This document shows positions 13,588-19,935 of a DNA stretch of 20,059 nucleotides, in pieces. Each line of letters opens with the position of its first letter. Position 1 is the first letter of the stretch. Below the pieces are notes generated by a model, which was not told where the DNA came from, did no database searches, and saw only the letters and a list, made by a program, of their open reading frames with translations. Source of the DNA: a virus (taxonomy: Duplodnaviria > Heunggongvirae > Uroviricota > Caudoviricetes); the IMG/VR virus record IMGVR_UViG_2651869749_000005. One strand, written 5' to 3'. The position numbers and the translations under genes are program-made.

Positions 13588-13790
13588 AACCTCACTCCCA
13601 GCGGACGACGGCGACGGCGGGTTGTCCCCAGTACCAACTCAGCATCATTGATCGCACGGTTAAGCTCATCCAGAGAGGCCGCCGTATATTCAATTCTGCG
13701 ACCATCTTTCTGGACAGACACCACCCGTTTACCAGTTAATAAATCAAGGCGCGCCTGACGCAGCGCCTGCAGTTCAGCGACTGTAACCAT
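13584..13790 (-). CDS. W: Head-tail joining protein W
   Basis: 68-aa ORF (lambda W is 68 aa); LTGKRVVSVQKDGRRIEYTAASL resembles lambda W [22 protein letters not shown]. Confidence 0.88.
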   Translation of the reverse strand: MVTVAELQALRQARLDLLTGKRVVSVQKDGRRIEYTAASLDELNRAINDAELVLGTTRRRRRPLGVRL

Positions 13791-15702
13791 TCACTCCTCC
13801 GGACAGCTTCGCTGCCAGTTCTTTAAGGGTTGGCCGGGTCGTCTCTTCTTCCCGGGATTTTGCCAGTACAGCCAGATCAAGCTGCCAGCGTTGCACGGAC
13901 ACACGTAATGCCGCGTAGGCATACACCAGGCAGTCCAGCGCTTCGTTACGCCGCTTTTTGTTATCCCACAGCAGACGCATCTTTCCTTTTTCCCACTTCT
14001 CCACAAGCTCTTCCGCGACCAGTTGCTGTGCCTCTGTCTGCGAAAAAATCTCCGGATCATCAGGAAAACGGATGGCATACAACGTGGCTTCATCCACAGG
14101 CGTGGGATCGGCTTTCATACGGGCATAGAGAATTTCTTTTGCGGTGTCCGTCCCCACTTCACACAGATACACGCCCCGCTGATTGCGGGTTTTTGGCATG
14201 GTGATCACCGGCTTGCCATAGACAGATGCGCCTTTTACCGGCAGCACCCGGAAAACACCGTGTTTTTTTGACCTCTGATAAACGATTTCGCCATCGATCC
14301 CCCCGGTGTCCCAGCAGACACGGGAAATGGTCATTTCGGTGCCATCCGCATGGCGGTATTTTTTGTTGATCGCCGCGTCCACACGTAACAGCGTCTCTTC
14401 CTCATCGGGACGCCCCATAATGATGATTTTATCCACCAGAAAGGCTTCCTCTCCCGGAGCCCATCCCCAGACATACATCTCAAAACGGTTTCGCTGCGAG
14501 TCAATGCCCGCCGTCAGATAAACCACCCGGACAGGTACCGCCGCCGTGTAATGAACAACCTTATCCATCAGCACCTGGTGATCGAGTTTTTCGCCCACGG
14601 CCTCTTCCCAGGTTTCGCCCAGCGTGGTGTTCACAAAGGTTTTCACGCCGTTGGGATCTTTCAGTGCATCCAGCCAGTCATAGACTATCTGTACCCAGGT
14701 GGTAAACGGACTGTACGCCGTCCAGATATGGAACGTGATGGAGCGCGGCGGCGGAATTTCATCACCCCGGGCGCTGAAAAACGTCAGGCCGTCACGGGTC
14801 CACATACCCGTATTTTCACAGATCCACCGCCCGTTACTCTGGTCCAGTTCAGACTGATGAATCACACAGCCATGATGCTCACAAAGGTAGAAAACGCTTT
14901 CGGGGCAGTCCTTCTCCCATTTAAGCCCAAAAGGCGTGGACTCATCGCCAAATTTCAGATACTGCTCCTCCCCACAGTGCGGGCAGGGCACATAAAAACG
15001 CATAAAATGCGCCGACTCGTTGGCCGCTTTTTCGATCTGGCAGGTGCCTTTGATTTTAGGCGTCGAGCCGCGAATGGATTTTGGCCATACAGAGCCCTCA
15101 ATACGCTTATCCCCCAGCAGGGTTGGCGAGCCCTCTTTTTCGACATCCGGCTCGAACGAGGAAAGCTCGTCATAGCAGACCACGTCCACGGATTTTTCAC
15201 GGTAGTTTTTTGCTGCCGCACCACCCAGGCACCAGAAACCCACACGTGACGTAAACCTTTTTAATGTCAGCGTGTTATCCCTGTGCTTACGCCCCAGCCA
15301 GGGGGAAAGAATTTTCAGACAGGGAACATCCCGTAATGTCGACTCCACATGAGACTTCATAAAATCTTCAGCGGCAGAATCCGTAGGCTGAAACAGAAGA
15401 CTGTTACGATTTTTATGCTCAATAAAGTAACCAATAACGCCCATCAGCATTTTGGTGTAACCGACACGAGCTGATTTTATAAGATTAATCGTGCGGATCC
15501 GGTCATTACCCATGCAGTTCATTATTGCCACCTGAAACGGCAACGTCTTCCACCGCCCGGCAAGATAAGAAGACTCCGGAGGTAAATAATAATTTTGATC
15601 AGCCCATTCAACGGTGGTGACAGGCAGTGGGCGTAAAAGACCGCGAAGTGCCACGCTACAAACAACAGCAAAGTTATTTAGCTGCTTCTCTGAGGTATTC
15701 AT
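13774..15702 (-). CDS. A: Terminase large subunit A
   Basis: 642-aa ORF (lambda A is 641 aa); [25 protein letters not shown] (ATPase region), [14 protein letters not shown] and WDTGGID motifs match lambda gpA. Confidence 0.93.
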
Positions 15703-16222
15703 CCAGCATCTCCGGTAACTTCTCTGCCGTTGATGCGCATCGGTTTGCCGCCTTTGCTATATCGGTTTTCAGGAAATCAAGCATGGCGGGCGTCAGTGCC
15801 GGAAACTGTCTCTGCATGGACAATGGAATGGAGTCAAGAATGGCAGAGATCTCCTGCGCCAGTCTTCCCAGAGCAAAAAGGCAAAACCCTGTATCAATGA
15901 CCTGTCCACTGTCACGGGCATTTTTCAGTTCCTGTGCATCTGCCTGTGCCTTCGTCAGTCGGTAGCGTTCGTAATCAATGGTGCCGGGCTGAAGGTCAGA
16001 TTCACTGGCAGCCCTCAAGTCTTCGACCTCTTTACGGAGTTTTTCATTTTCAATATCAGCTTCGCGCTGCGCATACCATTCGATCGCCTTCGCAGAATCA
16101 AAGATGACCTCAACGCCTTTTCCTCCACCAGATATCTGAGGGAGCCCCTGGGTTTGCCAGCGATCAATCGTGCGTATATCGACATTAAAAATTTCAGCAA
16201 GCTTCTTTTTATTAACATTCAT
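15674..16222 (-). CDS. Nu1: Terminase small subunit Nu1
   Basis: 182-aa [59 protein letters not shown] closely parallels lambda Nu1 (181 aa); AAGGA SD 9 nt upstream; cos lies immediately upstream. Confidence 0.93.
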
Positions 16223-16450
16223 TCAGCAATTCCTTATCAAAAATCAGTTACGACATGAAATGCCAAAAAAAAACAGATTTTTCATCATTCTGATGTCGTT
16301 TCTTTCTTGATAGTTATTTATTTAAAAACAATACGTTAATAACAAGAAGAACTGACATGCTTTTTCCCGGAAAATTTTCATAAATAGCGAAAACCCGCGA
16401 GGTCGCCGCCCCGTAACCTGTCGGATCGCCGGAAAGGACCCACGAAAATG
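16223..16450 (-). promoter_or_regulatory. cos: cos packaging site: cosB (16223-16399), cosN cohesive end (16400-16411), cosQ-like flank (16412-16445)
   Basis: Reverse complement of 16367-16411 is GGGCGGCGACCTCGCGGGTTTTCGCTATTTATGAAAATTTTCCGG, identical to the first 45 nt of lambda as I recall. Reverse complement of 16412-16445 (CGTGGGTCCTTTCCGGCGATCCGACAGGTTACGG) matches the lambda right end. Confidence 0.9.
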
Positions 16451-16618
16451 ATAATAATTATCATCTACATGAGGTTTATCACGACATGTGTGTACGCCAT
16501 CAAACCACGAGAAATAATCAATTATTACGCAGGTATCGTATTAATTGATCTGCATCAAATTAGCGTAAAAGCAACATCAGATAATACAAATCAGCAACAC
16601 TGAATACGGGGCAACATT

Positions 16619-16843
16619 ATGTCATCAAAGAACAGAACCCGCAGAACAACAACCCGCAACATCCGATTTCCAAACCAGATAATTGAACAAATTAACATCG
16701 CTCTTGACCTGAAAGGTTCAGGTAATTTTTCAGCGTGGGTTATTGAAGCCTGCAGAAGAAGATTAATTAATGAAAAATATTCTCAATTTGTACCCAACAA
16801 AGACAAACACGACCAGAGCACCTGTTCAGACAGGTTTACTTAA
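16619..16843 (+). CDS. Small ribbon-helix-helix-like DNA-binding protein (possibly DUF3950-type; unverified)
   Basis: 74-aa plus-strand ORF; basic N-terminus, then RNIRFPNQIIEQINIALDLKGSGNFSAWVIEACRRRL, which fits a beta-strand/helix/G-x-S/helix RHH fold; GGGG 8 nt upstream of the ATG; followed by an intrinsic terminator. Confidence 0.6.
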   Translation: MSSKNRTRRTTTRNIRFPNQIIEQINIALDLKGSGNFSAWVIEACRRRLINEKYSQFVPNKDKHDQSTCSDRFT

Positions 16844-16861
16844 ACGACTTATATATGACAC

Positions 16862-16890
16862 AAAAAGCGACCACTAAAGTCGCTTTTTCT
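16862..16890. terminator. Bidirectional intrinsic terminator between the convergent RHH and perC-like genes
   Basis: AAAAAGCGAC-cactaaa-GTCGCTTTTTCTT: 6-bp GC-rich stem flanked by an A-run and a T-run. Confidence 0.75.
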
Positions 16891-16924
16891 TATGGTAACA
16901 GGCAATAACTCTCTCAGATATTTT

Positions 16925-17239
16925 TTAGCATTTTTTTGACCGCGCGTTTCCGGACGTATTCTGTTCTCCTGTCCCTTTATATCGTCGGAATACCCGCCGC
17001 TCTTCAAATCCCATTCCCAACTCAGAATGTAGTCTGTTGACCGCTTGTTTTATTTCGGTCAGGTTCACCGGTGAAACCGGAGTCCGGCGCGCCTTACGCA
17101 AACACTCTGCTCGTTTCTGTGCCGCCACTTTTCTTTTCTGGTCATCACTTAGCTGTACCATCACTTTTGCCCATCGTTCAGCTGCTCTCCGGTACAGTCC
17201 TTTTTTCTCCAGACATTCTGCCACGTGATCATGTAGCAT
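16925..17239 (-). CDS. PerC-family transcriptional regulator homolog (Pch-like)
   Basis: 104-aa ORF MLHDHVAECLEKKGLYRRAAERWAKVM...; the LE.KG.WRRAA.RW signature matches my recollection of PerC/Pch regulators of EPEC/EHEC. Strong GGAGG SD 6 nt upstream; preceded by a roughly 460-bp AT-rich leader. Confidence 0.65.
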   Translation of the reverse strand: MLHDHVAECLEKKGLYRRAAERWAKVMVQLSDDQKRKVAAQKRAECLRKARRTPVSPVNLTEIKQAVNRLHSELGMGFEERRVFRRYKGTGEQNTSGNARSKKC

Positions 17240-17704
17240 AAGTGACCTCCGATTATCTACAGACTGCCATCCTGAATTTACCTTCCCTTAATGAAATAAC
17301 AATAAAAAACAAACCACGCAAAAACAATAAAACAACACACAAAAAAAACTAAATAATAAACAAAAATAATCACCTTATTTTATTATTTTTTGAGGGAGCA
17401 ATTACTGAACAAAAAACGCTGACTATATACTCAAAACCAAACAACTATTCTGCCAATCAGGTATCATGGCAACACACGGAATTACCGTGTTTTTGCCTTC
17501 TCTGCCCATACAATACGGGCATATACTTCATTCTCTATTGTAATATTTCTATCCATGTGCCCCACTCCATTTACCTGTAAATAATATTCAAAATATTTAT
17601 CACAGAAATCGTTTTTGGCCATGAACTGAGCACACTATAAAGTCCGGAACTGACTCTTTGTTAAATTACCTTAACGTTACCAGTAACACCTTCATAACAA
17701 AACA

Positions 17705-19728: not shown

Positions 19729-19935
19729 CTACTCTCCCCGCGCCACCTTACGCTTATCTTCTTTAATCTTGAAATAAAGGTTAGTCAGATACGTCAGCAG
19801 GCCAAACAGCAGACTCCCCAGCACACCGATTGCCACCCACTGGGACGGAGAGACTTTGTCCAGCAGCTGCAGTAACCAGTATCCCGTCCCCACCGCTGAC
19901 GTGGTGTATGACACACCCGTTGTGATTTTTTCCAT
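19729..19935 (-). CDS. S: Class II holin, phage 21 S-type pinholin
   Basis: 68-aa [71 protein letters not shown]; two TM segments and a charged C-terminus, closely resembling S21 as I recall; GGAGA SD upstream. Confidence 0.88.

What the first reader, a model, noticed from the sequence alone, without database searches (positions are those of the whole stretch)
16619..16843. Small RHH-like DNA-binding gene next to cos, convergent with the perC-like gene
The 74-aa protein has the beta-strand/helix/GxS-loop/helix pattern of CopG/Arc/MetJ-type repressors and contains an NFS motif that I associate, from memory only, with the DUF3950 prophage family. It is convergent with the perC-like gene and they share a bidirectional terminator (16862-16890). 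It could be a regulator of neighbouring moron expression, an antitoxin-like repressor without an obvious toxin partner, or a packaging accessory factor.
Basis: inference. Interest (0 to 1): 0.45.

Follow-up and report, generated by a model that had tools for sequence, protein, structure and literature searches.

The report
Small DUF3950 DNA-binding gene beside cos

Summary
The ORF at 16619-16843 (+) exists exactly as described. It is a clear DUF3950 / YlcI-YnfO member (Pfam 63.8 bits against a cut-off of 25). Near-identical DNA is annotated this way in RefSeq E. coli genomes. It lies 207 nt from lambda-type cosN, divergent from Nu1 and convergent with a PerC-family gene. A perfect 10-bp hairpin with T-runs on both strands separates it from that gene.

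Phage lambda carries an unannotated homologue (J02459 48145-48303, minus strand). Window and lambda differ by 14 synonymous changes and 5 conservative replacements in 50 codons.

A ribbon-helix-helix fold is supported by several weak-to-moderate lines, but no structure search was significant.

The conserved unit is the 48-50-codon domain. Upstream DNA (lambda cos, or an HK97-type HNH gene) and the C-terminal tail are swapped between phages.

Distant relatives sit at the divergent control region of P4-like satellites, flanked by fixed-position palindromes. Others head two-gene units in chromosomal islands.

Best reading: a small dimeric repressor made from its own moron-like unit, antisense to the late operon, with an unknown target. 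A dedicated perC regulator, an antitoxin and a packaging factor are all less likely.

This is a known family, so interest is modest.

The parts
16619..16843 (+). Gene for the 74-aa DUF3950 / YlcI-YnfO family protein, stop codon included.
   Evidence: ORF list. Pfam PF13132 63.8 bits. NCBIfam NF041551 34.5 bits. phrog_949 E=6e-31.
16619..16768 (+). Conserved N-terminal module, residues 1-50: a basic arm plus the putative ribbon-helix-helix domain. This is the only part shared with lambda, Stx phages, satellites and chromosomal relatives.
   Evidence: Alignments. Homology to lambda ends near codons 45-48. Homology to Stx phage YYZ-2008 starts at the ATG and ends near codon 48. 14 synonymous against 5 replacement changes.
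16655..16672 (+). Putative beta-ribbon strand, R13-N14-I15-R16-F17-P18. N14 and R16 are predicted to face the DNA; I15 and F17 are predicted to face the core.
   Evidence: I15 and R16 are invariant and F17 is nearly invariant across the family. hhalign places N14/R16/P18 on Arc N11/R13/P15. AlphaFold leaves this segment extended in the monomer. The strand assignment is inferred.
16673..16714 (+). Helix A, residues 19-32.
   Evidence: AlphaFold2 models.
16715..16726 (+). Inter-helix loop G33-S34-G35-N36. It leads into the F37-S38 N-cap of helix B and so completes the 'NFS' motif.
   Evidence: Sequence. The loop lies between the helices in the second model. F37 is invariant.
16727..16783 (+). 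Helix B, residues 37-55 (FSAWVIEACRRRL...). W40, V41 and C45 are invariant.
   Evidence: AlphaFold2. Family alignment.
16769..16840 (+). Variable C-terminal tail, residues 51-74. It is low-confidence and was created by a mosaic junction.
   Evidence: Tails differ among alleles. pLDDT is 42-63. The DNA alignment breaks down after about 16753.
16608..16611 (+). GGGG ribosome-binding-site candidate, 7 nt before the ATG.
   Evidence: Sequence. Conserved in lambda-type alleles as GGGG or GGGA.
16862..16888 (.). Hairpin with A- and T-runs on both sides. It is a probable bidirectional intrinsic terminator shared with the perC-like gene.
   Evidence: Perfect 10-bp inverted repeat. RNA folds with z-scores of -3.55 and -2.81. 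Not listed by the consensus scan.
16400..16411 (.). cosN 12-nt cohesive-end sequence, the reverse complement of lambda GGGCGGCGACCT.
   Evidence: Sequence and alignment to lambda. It starts exactly 211 bp upstream of the ATG in six other lambda-type loci searched; in this window, which carries 8 extra bases, the offset is 219 bp.
16412..16618 (+). Conserved cos-to-gene spacer, about 90-95% identical among lambda-type phages. It must hold the gene's promoter, but no good sigma-70 consensus was found.
   Evidence: Alignments. Promoter scans.
16449..16463 (.). Palindrome TGATAATAATTATCA, just beyond the cosQ-like AGGACCC.
   Evidence: Repeat search. One of only two ATAAT-N(0-3)-ATTAT palindromes in the 20-kb window. 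Conserved in lambda-type loci. Function unknown.
16511..16526 (.). Second palindrome of the same type, AAATAATCAATTATTA. It overlaps the left arm of the 13-nt inverted repeat 16517-16529 / 16537-16549.
   Evidence: Spacing to the first palindrome is 63 bp here and 56 bp in lambda, counted by hand on the aligned sequences, so helical phasing is not conserved. Variants break pairs rather than compensate.
16925..17239 (-). Convergent PerC-family gene, 104 aa.
   Evidence: PF06069 149.3 bits. Annotated 'PerC family transcriptional regulator' in RefSeq genomes.
15674..16222 (-). Divergent terminase small subunit Nu1. Its start lies 396 bp from the start of the DUF3950 gene.
   Evidence: PF07471 272.7 bits. 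The same divergent pairing occurs with nohD/ylcI and nohA/ynfO in K-12, 388 bp apart.

Best explanation
The gene encodes a small sequence-specific DNA-binding protein of the DUF3950 (YlcI/YnfO) family.

Residues about 13-55 form a ribbon-helix-helix domain. Two chains are expected to pair their N-terminal strands (R13-N14-I15-R16-F17-P18) into a two-stranded ribbon. That ribbon enters the major groove, with N14 and R16 plus the basic arm (K4...R13) contacting DNA. The conserved core (I15, F17, I25, F37, W40, V41, A44, C45) holds the dimer together. The last 24 residues are a variable, probably disordered tail.

The gene is a self-contained, AT-rich, moron-like transcription unit at the lysis/packaging junction. 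It reads away from cos, against the Q-dependent late transcript, and ends at a hairpin shared with perC. It should therefore be made mainly from the prophage. It should be shut down by convergent late transcription after induction.

Its most likely job is transcriptional repression, probably including its own promoter, of a target that is not yet identified.

Shown: gene, family membership, purifying selection, modular conservation, genomic contexts.
Inferred: fold, dimer, DNA binding, repression, timing of expression.
For: Family membership.

Coding selection: 14 synonymous against 5 conservative replacement changes compared with lambda. All 38 divergent loci examined carry an intact ORF.

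Fold:
- The helix-loop-helix spacing fits RHH, with core pLDDT 75-90.
- 8 of 17 family members hit the HicB-like RHH PHROG (best E=6.4e-5), and others hit three Arc-like repressor PHROGs.
- The family profile against the Arc profile gives P=1.3e-4 in the expected register.
- Two of three Foldseek hits are RHH proteins, a VapB antitoxin (RHH by my recollection) and CdbA.

The unit under selection is the domain, not its surroundings.

Regulator-like settings elsewhere:
- In about 20 P4-like satellite loci the gene faces the primase operon across a short control region. GGTGnnnnnnCACC-type palindromes sit at fixed positions -100, -76 and -34 from its ATG.
- A second subfamily with a different strand sequence has GGTAnnTACC palindromes at about -85 and -50.
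- In Qin it is the first gene before ydfO. In Salmonella and Citrobacter islands it precedes a 61-62-aa membrane peptide.

Moron-like features: GC of 37-39% against about 52% in the terminase genes, its own terminator hairpin, and orientation opposite to the late genes.

Expression of the K-12 homologue: ybcW-ylcI is listed as a convergent transcriptional overlap seen in at least 50% of RNA-seq samples (PMC12288877).

Against: No RHH Pfam family and no solved RHH chain was hit by sequence.

The beta-strand is not formed in the monomer models, and a dimer could not be modelled.

No convincing sigma-70 promoter was found upstream.

No operator can be named for the lambda-type gene. The upstream region is replaced entirely in Stx phage YYZ-2008. 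The satellite-type palindromes are absent near the gene here.

In the satellites the palindromes could equally belong to the divergent 72-aa 'transcriptional repressor' family gene.

No experimental function exists for any family member. ynfO is still listed as uncharacterised (PMC11551758).
Confidence: 0.6

Rival explanations
1. Packaging or cos accessory factor. The protein binds near cos or touches terminase, and modulates cos cleavage, packaging initiation or termination. Alternatively it protects the prophage cos from stray terminase in lysogens.
For: In lambda-type loci the gene always sits the same distance from cosN and divergent from Nu1.

In an Stx phage with an unrelated HK97-type module (HNH-TerS-TerL) it again directly abuts the packaging genes, 41 bp from the HNH start. 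Other accessory genes lie on its far side.

One satellite protein, P0192, fuses DUF3950 to the N-terminal part of a Terminase_2 small subunit.

Two rare palindromes lie between cosQ and the gene.
Against: Satellite relatives sit next to the primase-operon control region, about 4.5 kb from TerS in Pmp7. Chromosomal relatives lie between sopB and pipD. No lambda-type cosN is near any of them.

Homology to the Stx-phage allele begins at the ATG, so no cos-side DNA travels with the gene.

From established lambda biology (my own knowledge), cosQ-cosN-cosB suffices for packaging. Helper phages and packaging extracts could, however, supply this protein in trans.

The junction between lysis and head genes is a general moron slot.
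Confidence: 0.12
2. Player in helper-satellite or phage-phage conflict. The lambdoid copy cross-talks with the homologous regulator of P4-like satellites, or acts on superinfecting phages. It would do so by competing for operators or by forming inactive mixed dimers.
For: The same family sits at the control region of about 20 satellite loci and is reported in Enterobacter cf-PICIs (PMC13612085).

The invariant residues are the core and interface positions, while the strand positions vary: TRN here, TKG or MKN in satellites.

The gene lies at the right end of the packaged chromosome. From my own knowledge, that end enters the cell first.
Against: This is purely contextual. There is no PADLOC match.

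Identity between the lambdoid and satellite proteins is only 35-45%.

Satellite-type operator palindromes are not enriched in the window.
Confidence: 0.08
3. Dedicated regulator of the neighbouring perC-like gene or of other adjacent morons.
For: The two genes are convergent neighbours that share a terminator. The arrangement recurs in about 660 E. coli genomes.
Against: The 1-kb query around the gene matches 4630 genomes, but the perC-linked arrangement occurs in only 660.

The downstream neighbour differs in lambda, DLP12, Qin and Stx phages while the DNA-reading strand stays identical.

The mosaic junction lies inside the gene's 3' end. perC therefore arrived as a separate module.
Confidence: 0.05
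4. Orphan antitoxin of a toxin-antitoxin pair.
Against: There is no partner ORF here. The hairpin starts 19 nt after the stop codon, and the only overlapping ORF (16770-16877, 35 aa) is hydrophilic.

Lambda, DLP12 and Stx-phage copies also stand alone.
Confidence: 0.04
5. A passenger with no current function, kept because it is tightly linked to cos, which is a recombination hot spot.
For: Codons 6-29 are nearly identical at the DNA level across alleles, synonymous sites included. Recombination between lambda and DLP12 clusters at cos (PMC3945230).
Against: There is a synonymous excess against lambda. Intact ORFs at 35-55% identity occur in many genera and in three unrelated contexts. The module is retained when cos is replaced by an HNH gene.
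Confidence: 0.05

Closest known systems
DUF3950 (Pfam PF13132) / YlcI-YnfO family (NCBIfam NF041551): E. coli K-12 YlcI (DLP12) and YnfO (Qin)
   Same: It is a direct member. The conserved N-terminal domain and NFS motif are the same. So is the position, divergent from a Nu1 homologue about 390 bp away, on the strand opposite to the late genes.
   Different: The C-terminal tail (INEKYSQFVPNKDKHDQSTCSDRFT) and the downstream neighbour (perC) are allele-specific. No function is known for any member.
Unannotated ORF of phage lambda, J02459 complement 48145-48303 (64 aa in KT232076)
   Same: It is the orthologous position next to cos. 45 of the first 50 residues are identical. The cos-to-gene spacer is conserved.
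   Different: The tail after residue 49 differs. Lambda has ybcW-like, DUF1398 and bor genes downstream instead of perC. The window's Nu1 is only 62% identical to lambda Nu1.
Arc and Mnt repressors of phage P22 (Arc family, PF03869)
   Same: Size is similar. The strand motif N-hydrophobic-R-hydrophobic-P is followed by helix, a G-containing loop and helix. The profile alignment falls in that register. Family members make weak Arc-like PHROG hits. Arc and Mnt are phage-encoded small repressors.
   Different: Similarity is marginal (hhalign probability 54%), and there is no Pfam Arc hit. The conserved NFSAWVxxAC helix and the long basic N-terminal arm are specific to DUF3950. No ant-type target gene and no defined operator is present.
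CopG / RHH_1 regulators and RHH antitoxins (C-terminal domain of HicB, Rv0298, RHH-type VapB)
   Same: These are the best structural and PHROG matches. In several contexts the gene has the typical 'first gene, autorepressor' position.
   Different: There is no toxin or replication partner in this window. All scores fall below significance thresholds.
Lambdoid morons such as bor
   Same: It is AT-rich, sits between the lysis genes and cos, is oriented against the late operon and has its own terminator.
   Different: Unlike typical morons it is nearly universal in lambda-type cos phages. It always sits on the packaging-module side of the slot. No promoter has been identified.
DUF3950 genes of P4-like / PICI-type satellites (for example Pasteurella Pmp7, and Serratia, Xenorhabdus and Pectobacterium islands)
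   Same: The domain is the same. It is a lone gene on the strand opposite to the surrounding operon.
   Different: Identity is only 35-45%. These copies sit at a divergent control region with fixed palindromes, a SymR-like antisense element and a repressor-family gene. They are not at cos.

Membership tests
DUF3950 (Pfam PF13132) | Score above the curated gathering threshold on the family HMM. | tested here: met
   63.8 bits against 25, E=1.3e-17, residues 21-49 on profile positions 1-29 of 30. All 17 diverse relatives also match.
DUF3950 (Pfam PF13132) | Conserved NFS motif. That this motif appears in the Pfam description is my recollection. | tested here: met
   N36-F37-S38 are present. F37 is invariant, and N36 and S38 are conserved in most family members.
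YlcI/YnfO family (NCBIfam NF041551) | Score above the curated cut-off. | tested here: met
   34.5 bits against 30. RefSeq annotates the 98.5%-identical locus as 'YlcI/YnfO family protein'.
YlcI/YnfO family (NCBIfam NF041551) | Prophage position divergent from the Nu1-type small terminase gene, as for ylcI/nohD and ynfO/nohA. | tested here: met
   The Nu1 start at 16222 and the gene start at 16619 are 396 bp apart. The distance is 388 bp in both K-12 prophages.
Ribbon-helix-helix (CopG/Arc/MetJ) superfamily | Strand-helix-helix order within about 45 residues. | tested here: inconclusive
   Helices at 19-32 and 37-55 are predicted with core pLDDT 75-90. The preceding segment is extended but not scored as a strand in the monomer.
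Ribbon-helix-helix (CopG/Arc/MetJ) superfamily | Alternating strand pattern with polar or basic DNA-facing residues, and a Gly-containing loop with an S/T/N cap before helix 2. | tested here: met
   The strand reads R13-N14-I15-R16-F17-P18 and the loop G33-S34-G35-N36-F37-S38. The conservation pattern fits.
Ribbon-helix-helix (CopG/Arc/MetJ) superfamily | Significant sequence or profile similarity to an established RHH family. | tested here: inconclusive
   hhalign against the Arc profile gives P=1.3e-4 and probability 54%. PHROG HicB-like best E=6.4e-5 and Arc-like E=0.004-0.006. No RHH Pfam family and no PDB sequence hit.
Ribbon-helix-helix (CopG/Arc/MetJ) superfamily | Structural match to solved RHH proteins. 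| tested here: inconclusive
Ribbon-helix-helix (CopG/Arc/MetJ) superfamily | Obligate intertwined homodimer that binds DNA through the beta-ribbon. | not testable with these tools
   Only single chains from the window or database could be submitted for structure prediction.
Type II toxin-antitoxin system (RHH antitoxin) | Adjacent co-transcribed toxin gene. | tested here: not met
   No partner ORF is present. The terminator hairpin starts 19 nt after the stop codon. There is no PADLOC hit.
Moron (independent transcription unit in a late operon) | Own terminator, and base composition differing from the flanking phage genes. | tested here: met
   Hairpin at 16862-16888. GC is 37-39% against about 52%.
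Moron (independent transcription unit in a late operon) | Own promoter that is active in the lysogen. | tested here: inconclusive
   No good sigma-70 match was found in 16412-16618, only weak -10-like hexamers. Transcription of K-12 ylcI is reported only indirectly.
Lambda cos / terminase accessory factor | Constant physical linkage to a cos site across the family. | tested here: not met
   The linkage is constant in lambda-type loci. It is absent in satellites and chromosomal relatives, and an HNH gene replaces cos as the immediate neighbour in YYZ-2008.

The most novel reading that the evidence does not exclude
DUF3950 proteins are the switch repressors of P4-like phage satellites. Lambdoid helper phages, lambda included, carry a paralogue at the end of the chromosome that enters the cell first. 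The helper copy would interfere with, or sense, those satellites, for example by forming mixed inactive dimers through the invariant core or by competing for operators. An unannotated gene in lambda would then be a helper-satellite conflict factor.
Probability: 0.06. Interest if true: 0.75.

Novelty: already known. Interest (0 to 1): 0.3.

Why it matters
The gene itself is ordinary. Near-identical copies are already annotated as YlcI/YnfO or DUF3950 in thousands of E. coli genomes.

What remains open is what this very common prophage protein does. It is still unannotated in the reference lambda sequence, 200 bp from cos, in the best-studied of all phages.

The survey here gives concrete leads:
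- a probable RHH fold;
- the 48-50-codon domain as the unit under selection;
- the control regions of P4-like satellites, where relatives sit among fixed palindromes, as a tractable place to test DNA binding.

If it is a repressor made in lysogens, it adds one more prophage-encoded regulator to pathogenic E. coli. Here it sits beside a PerC-family gene, and the PerC family includes known virulence regulators.

Tried and rejected
- Sequence search of the PDB with the protein and with two family profiles found no RHH chain, only chance hits.
- A Pfam scan of 17 family members at E<=10 found only DUF3950.
- Rfam on 16150-17500 found nothing.
- Promoter scans found no convincing sigma-70 promoter for the gene.
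- The 13-nt inverted repeat 16517-16549 was considered as an RNA hairpin or operator. Its fold is not unusual (z -1.6). Natural variants break pairs rather than compensate.
- The upstream 51-aa ORF (16448-16603) was considered as a leader gene and rejected. It has no family hit. Most differences from lambda in it would change the amino acid (my reading).
- I looked for a lambda-type cosN beside distant relatives and found none.
- I looked for satellite-type palindromes near the gene in the window and found none. A single GGTGTATGACACACC lies in the holin gene.
- PADLOC found no defence-system match.
- Literature searches for DUF3950, YlcI and YnfO found only passing mentions. The lambda ribosome-profiling paper (PNAS 2013) is not held.
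- A long minus-strand ORF that overlaps the satellite homologues, annotated 'transcriptional repressor' in Pmp7, was considered as the real gene and rejected. That ORF is interrupted before the DUF3950 gene in several loci, while the DUF3950 ORF is intact in all. The repressor-family match lies entirely in the non-overlapping 72-aa part.
Full report
**1. Observation**

A GGGG run lies 7 nt upstream of the ATG.

It is a strong member of three overlapping families:
- Pfam DUF3950: 63.8 bits against a cut-off of 25.
- NCBIfam YlcI_YnfO_N: 34.5 bits against 30.
- phrog_949: E=6e-31.

A 1-kb query around the ORF (16300-17300) matches 4630 of 5426 complete E. coli genomes, with a median of two places per genome. 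The best matches (98.5% identity) are annotated 'YlcI/YnfO family protein' next to a 'PerC family transcriptional regulator'. The closest database protein differs by one residue.

**2. Setting**

The window is a lambdoid prophage read in reverse. In order it contains:
- TerL/gpA at 13774-15702 (-).
- Nu1 at 15674-16222 (-).
- The lambda cohesive-end sequence at 16400-16411.
- The DUF3950 gene (+).
- A hairpin at 16862-16888.
- A PerC-family gene at 16925-17239 (-).
- Rz, lysozyme and holin (-).

The gene therefore reads away from cos and against the late operon. The hairpin is a perfect 10-bp inverted repeat flanked by A- and T-runs. It folds well on both strands, so a bidirectional terminator is plausible. 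The consensus scan missed it. The gene is AT-rich, at 37-39% GC against about 52% in the terminase genes.

**3. Lambda has the same gene**

DNA homology between the window and lambda runs from the Nu1 upstream region, through cos, to about codon 45-48 of the ORF. Lambda encodes a 64-aa homologue. In the reference record J02459 the match lies at 48145-48303 on the minus strand, and no feature is annotated there.

Over the first 50 codons the two alleles differ by 14 synonymous nucleotide changes in 12 codons. There are only 5 amino-acid changes, all conservative. This means selection acts on the protein.

K-12 YlcI and YnfO occupy the same position. Both are divergent from the Nu1 homologues nohD and nohA, 388 bp away.

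**4. Fold**

The family alignment shows I15, R16, I25, F37, W40, V41 and C45 as invariant. F17 and A44 are nearly so.

AlphaFold2 with a diverse alignment gives an extended N-terminus followed by helices at 19-32 and 37-55. Core pLDDT is 75-90 and the tail is low-confidence. That is the expected appearance of one chain of a ribbon-helix-helix dimer.

Independent support:
- 8 of 17 family members hit the HicB-like PHROG in its RHH part (best E=6.4e-5). Several hit Arc-like repressor PHROGs at E=0.004-0.006.
- hhalign of the family profile against an Arc-family profile gives P=1.3e-4. It aligns N14/R16/P18 with Arc N11/R13/P15. From my own knowledge, Arc N11 and R13 are base-contacting residues.

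Evidence against:
- Foldseek was not significant.
- No Pfam RHH family or PDB sequence was hit.

I rate the RHH fold at about 0.8. A dimer could not be modelled with the tools allowed.

**5. What is conserved is the domain**

Residues 1-50 are almost constant among E. coli alleles, while the tails are many and unrelated. The junction with lambda lies at about codons 45-48.

In Stx phage YYZ-2008, and in many other Stx phages, the packaging module is HK97-type (HNH, TerS, TerL). There the gene lies between Rz and the HNH gene, 41 bp from the HNH start. DNA homology to the window begins exactly at the ATG and ends near codon 48.

So neither cos nor the lambda-type upstream spacer is needed for the gene to be kept. 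Even so, the gene always stays at the boundary of the packaging module, on the opposite strand.

In lambda-type loci the spacer from cos to the ATG is about 90-95% identical, with cosN starting 211 bp upstream of the ATG in the six other loci searched. In this window the offset is 219 bp, because of 8 extra bases.

**6. Distant relatives**

The family is small. It has 100 representative clusters among 1.84 billion proteins, many of them frameshifted lambda reads. It is confined to Enterobacterales and Pasteurellaceae. Intact ORFs at 35-57% identity occur in three further settings.

(a) P4-like or PICI-type satellites. These loci carry an integrase, AlpA, an AntA-type antirepressor and a primase.
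- The gene lies on the strand opposite to all the others. It faces a 72-aa gene of a 'transcriptional repressor' PHROG that heads the primase operon.
- The control region between them contains a SymR-like antisense element, which scores below the Rfam threshold.
- Palindromes sit at fixed positions. In about 20 loci they are of the GGTGnnnnnnCACC type at -100 and -76. The -76 copy is followed by GTCAAC/G, which reads as a -35 element for the opposite strand. A third sits at -34, joined to a TATAGT hexamer.
- In 7 loci of a second subfamily, with a different strand sequence, the palindromes are GGTAnnTACC at about -85 and -50.
- This looks like a two-promoter switch. Either protein could be the one that binds.

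(b) Chromosomal islands. In Salmonella arizonae and diarizonae the gene lies between sopB (IpgD family) and pipD (peptidase C69). In Citrobacter it lies in a comparable island. In both it is followed by a 61-62-aa hydrophobic peptide on the same strand.

(c) Qin prophage. There ynfO directly precedes ydfO (DUF1398) on the same strand.

A single satellite protein fuses the domain to the N-terminal part of a Terminase_2 small subunit.

**7. Most likely mechanism**

The protein is most likely a small dimeric RHH repressor. It would read DNA with N14 and R16 and with its basic arm. It would be made from a self-contained unit in the lysogen, and silenced when Q-antiterminated late transcription runs through it in the opposite direction.

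Supporting points:
- The fold evidence above.
- The regulator-like positions of relatives, either first in a short unit or at a divergent control region with palindromes.
- The moron-like composition and the terminator.
- The report that ybcW-ylcI overlap transcriptionally in most K-12 RNA-seq samples (PMC12288877).

What is missing is the target. No good promoter was found. The only unusual sites upstream are two ATAAT-N-ATTAT palindromes at 16449-16463 and 16511-16526, which are the only two in the 20-kb window. Their spacing differs between the window (63 bp) and lambda (56 bp), counted by hand on the aligned sequences. They are absent from the Stx-phage allele.

The strand residues are identical in alleles with quite different flanks. 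The target is therefore more likely something shared, such as a host site or a common phage site, than the local neighbour.

**8. Rivals**

- **Packaging or cos accessory role (0.12).** It fits the constant abutment to two unrelated packaging modules and the TerS fusion. It does not fit the satellite and chromosomal relatives.
- **Helper-satellite or phage-phage conflict role (0.08).** It is suggested only by the shared family and the invariant interface.
- **Dedicated perC regulator (0.05).** It is unlikely because perC is present in only about 660 of the 4630 genomes matched by the query, and because it arrived by a junction inside the gene's 3' end.
- **Antitoxin (0.04).** There is no partner gene here.
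- **Functionless passenger (0.05).** This is contradicted by the substitution pattern and by intact distant homologues.

**9. Novelty and verdict**

This is an already catalogued family with no known function. ynfO is still listed among the uncharacterised K-12 genes (PMC11551758). The literature holds only passing mentions.

Interest is modest at 0.3. The more useful by-products are the unannotated lambda homologue, the modular conservation of the domain, and the satellite control regions as an experimental entry point.

Noticed in passing
window 16925-17239 (-): PerC-family gene, 104 aa, PF06069 149 bits. It lies between Rz and the DUF3950 gene. This arrangement is found in about 660 complete E. 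coli genomes, including O157:H7 and O111 strains. The PerC family includes known virulence regulators (my own knowledge).
   Followed up: partly
L001 1795-1989; J02459 48145-48303 (-): The reference lambda record has no annotated feature over its 64-aa DUF3950 homologue, 200 bp from the right cohesive end. Some newer lambda records call it 'hypothetical protein'.
   Followed up: yes
loci L005-L037, L065, L076: Dozens of genome assemblies of unrelated organisms (Streptomyces, Cohnella, Pedobacter, Shewanella, candidate phyla MAGs) contain lambda DNA. The gene sits 150-390 bp from a contig end, often on contigs of about 3.5 kb. These look like sequencing control DNA contamination. Many 'proteins' of the family in metagenome sets are frameshifted lambda reads.
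   Followed up: partly
L083 4435-5109 (Pasteurella phage/satellite Pmp7): The annotated 224-aa 'transcriptional repressor' spans the antisense of the DUF3950 gene and the whole control region. Only its last 72 aa match the repressor PHROG. It is probably an over-extended gene call that hides the DUF3950 gene on the other strand.
   Followed up: yes
L050 5796-5867 (+), and equivalent positions in about 20 satellite loci: There is a conserved hairpin element upstream of the satellite DUF3950 genes. It is antisense to the start of the first gene of the primase operon. It resembles the SymR antitoxin RNA only weakly (29 bits, gathering score 61). In Pmp7 a T-run follows it on the + strand. It may be an undescribed antisense regulator.
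   Followed up: partly
L042/L043 6001-6171 (Salmonella enterica subsp. diarizonae and arizonae); L073 (Citrobacter): A DUF3950 homologue lies between sopB (IpgD family, 1019 bits) and pipD (peptidase C69). A 61-62-aa hydrophobic peptide gene follows it on the same strand, which may make a two-gene unit.
   Followed up: partly
L085 4001-4390 (protein P0192): A 129-aa satellite protein joins a DUF3950 domain to the N-terminal part of a Terminase_2 small terminase subunit. It sits between integrase and primase genes.
   Followed up: partly
window 15674-16222 (-) compared with 16317-16753: The window's Nu1 is 100% identical to that of phage PhiR5_1 but only 62% identical to lambda Nu1. The adjacent cos-to-DUF3950 block is about 87-90% identical to lambda. 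A mosaic junction therefore lies between cosB and Nu1.
   Followed up: no
window 16634-16658: Codons 6-29 of the gene are nearly identical at the DNA level, synonymous sites included, in lambda-type and Stx-phage alleles. The stretch contains a direct repeat of AACCCGCA 15 bp apart. This could be recent exchange or a cis-acting element; it is not resolved.
   Followed up: no
window 19903-19917: A perfect GGTGT-N5-ACACC palindrome of the kind seen upstream of satellite DUF3950 genes lies in the 5' part of the holin gene. It is a single copy, and about 1.6 looser matches are expected by chance in the window.
   Followed up: no
window 16751-16753 (residue C45): A single cysteine in helix 2 is invariant across the whole family, including the 35%-identical relatives. 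Its role (core packing, metal or redox) is unknown.
   Followed up: no
L087 3257-3958 (Qin) and L086 1685-2946 (DLP12); L001 1795-3056 (lambda): A DUF1398 gene (ydfO, ybcV, or lambda 'putative envelope protein') recurs downstream of the DUF3950 gene on the same strand. In Qin it is directly adjacent. In DLP12 and lambda a ybcW-like gene separates them. This window has neither gene.
   Followed up: no
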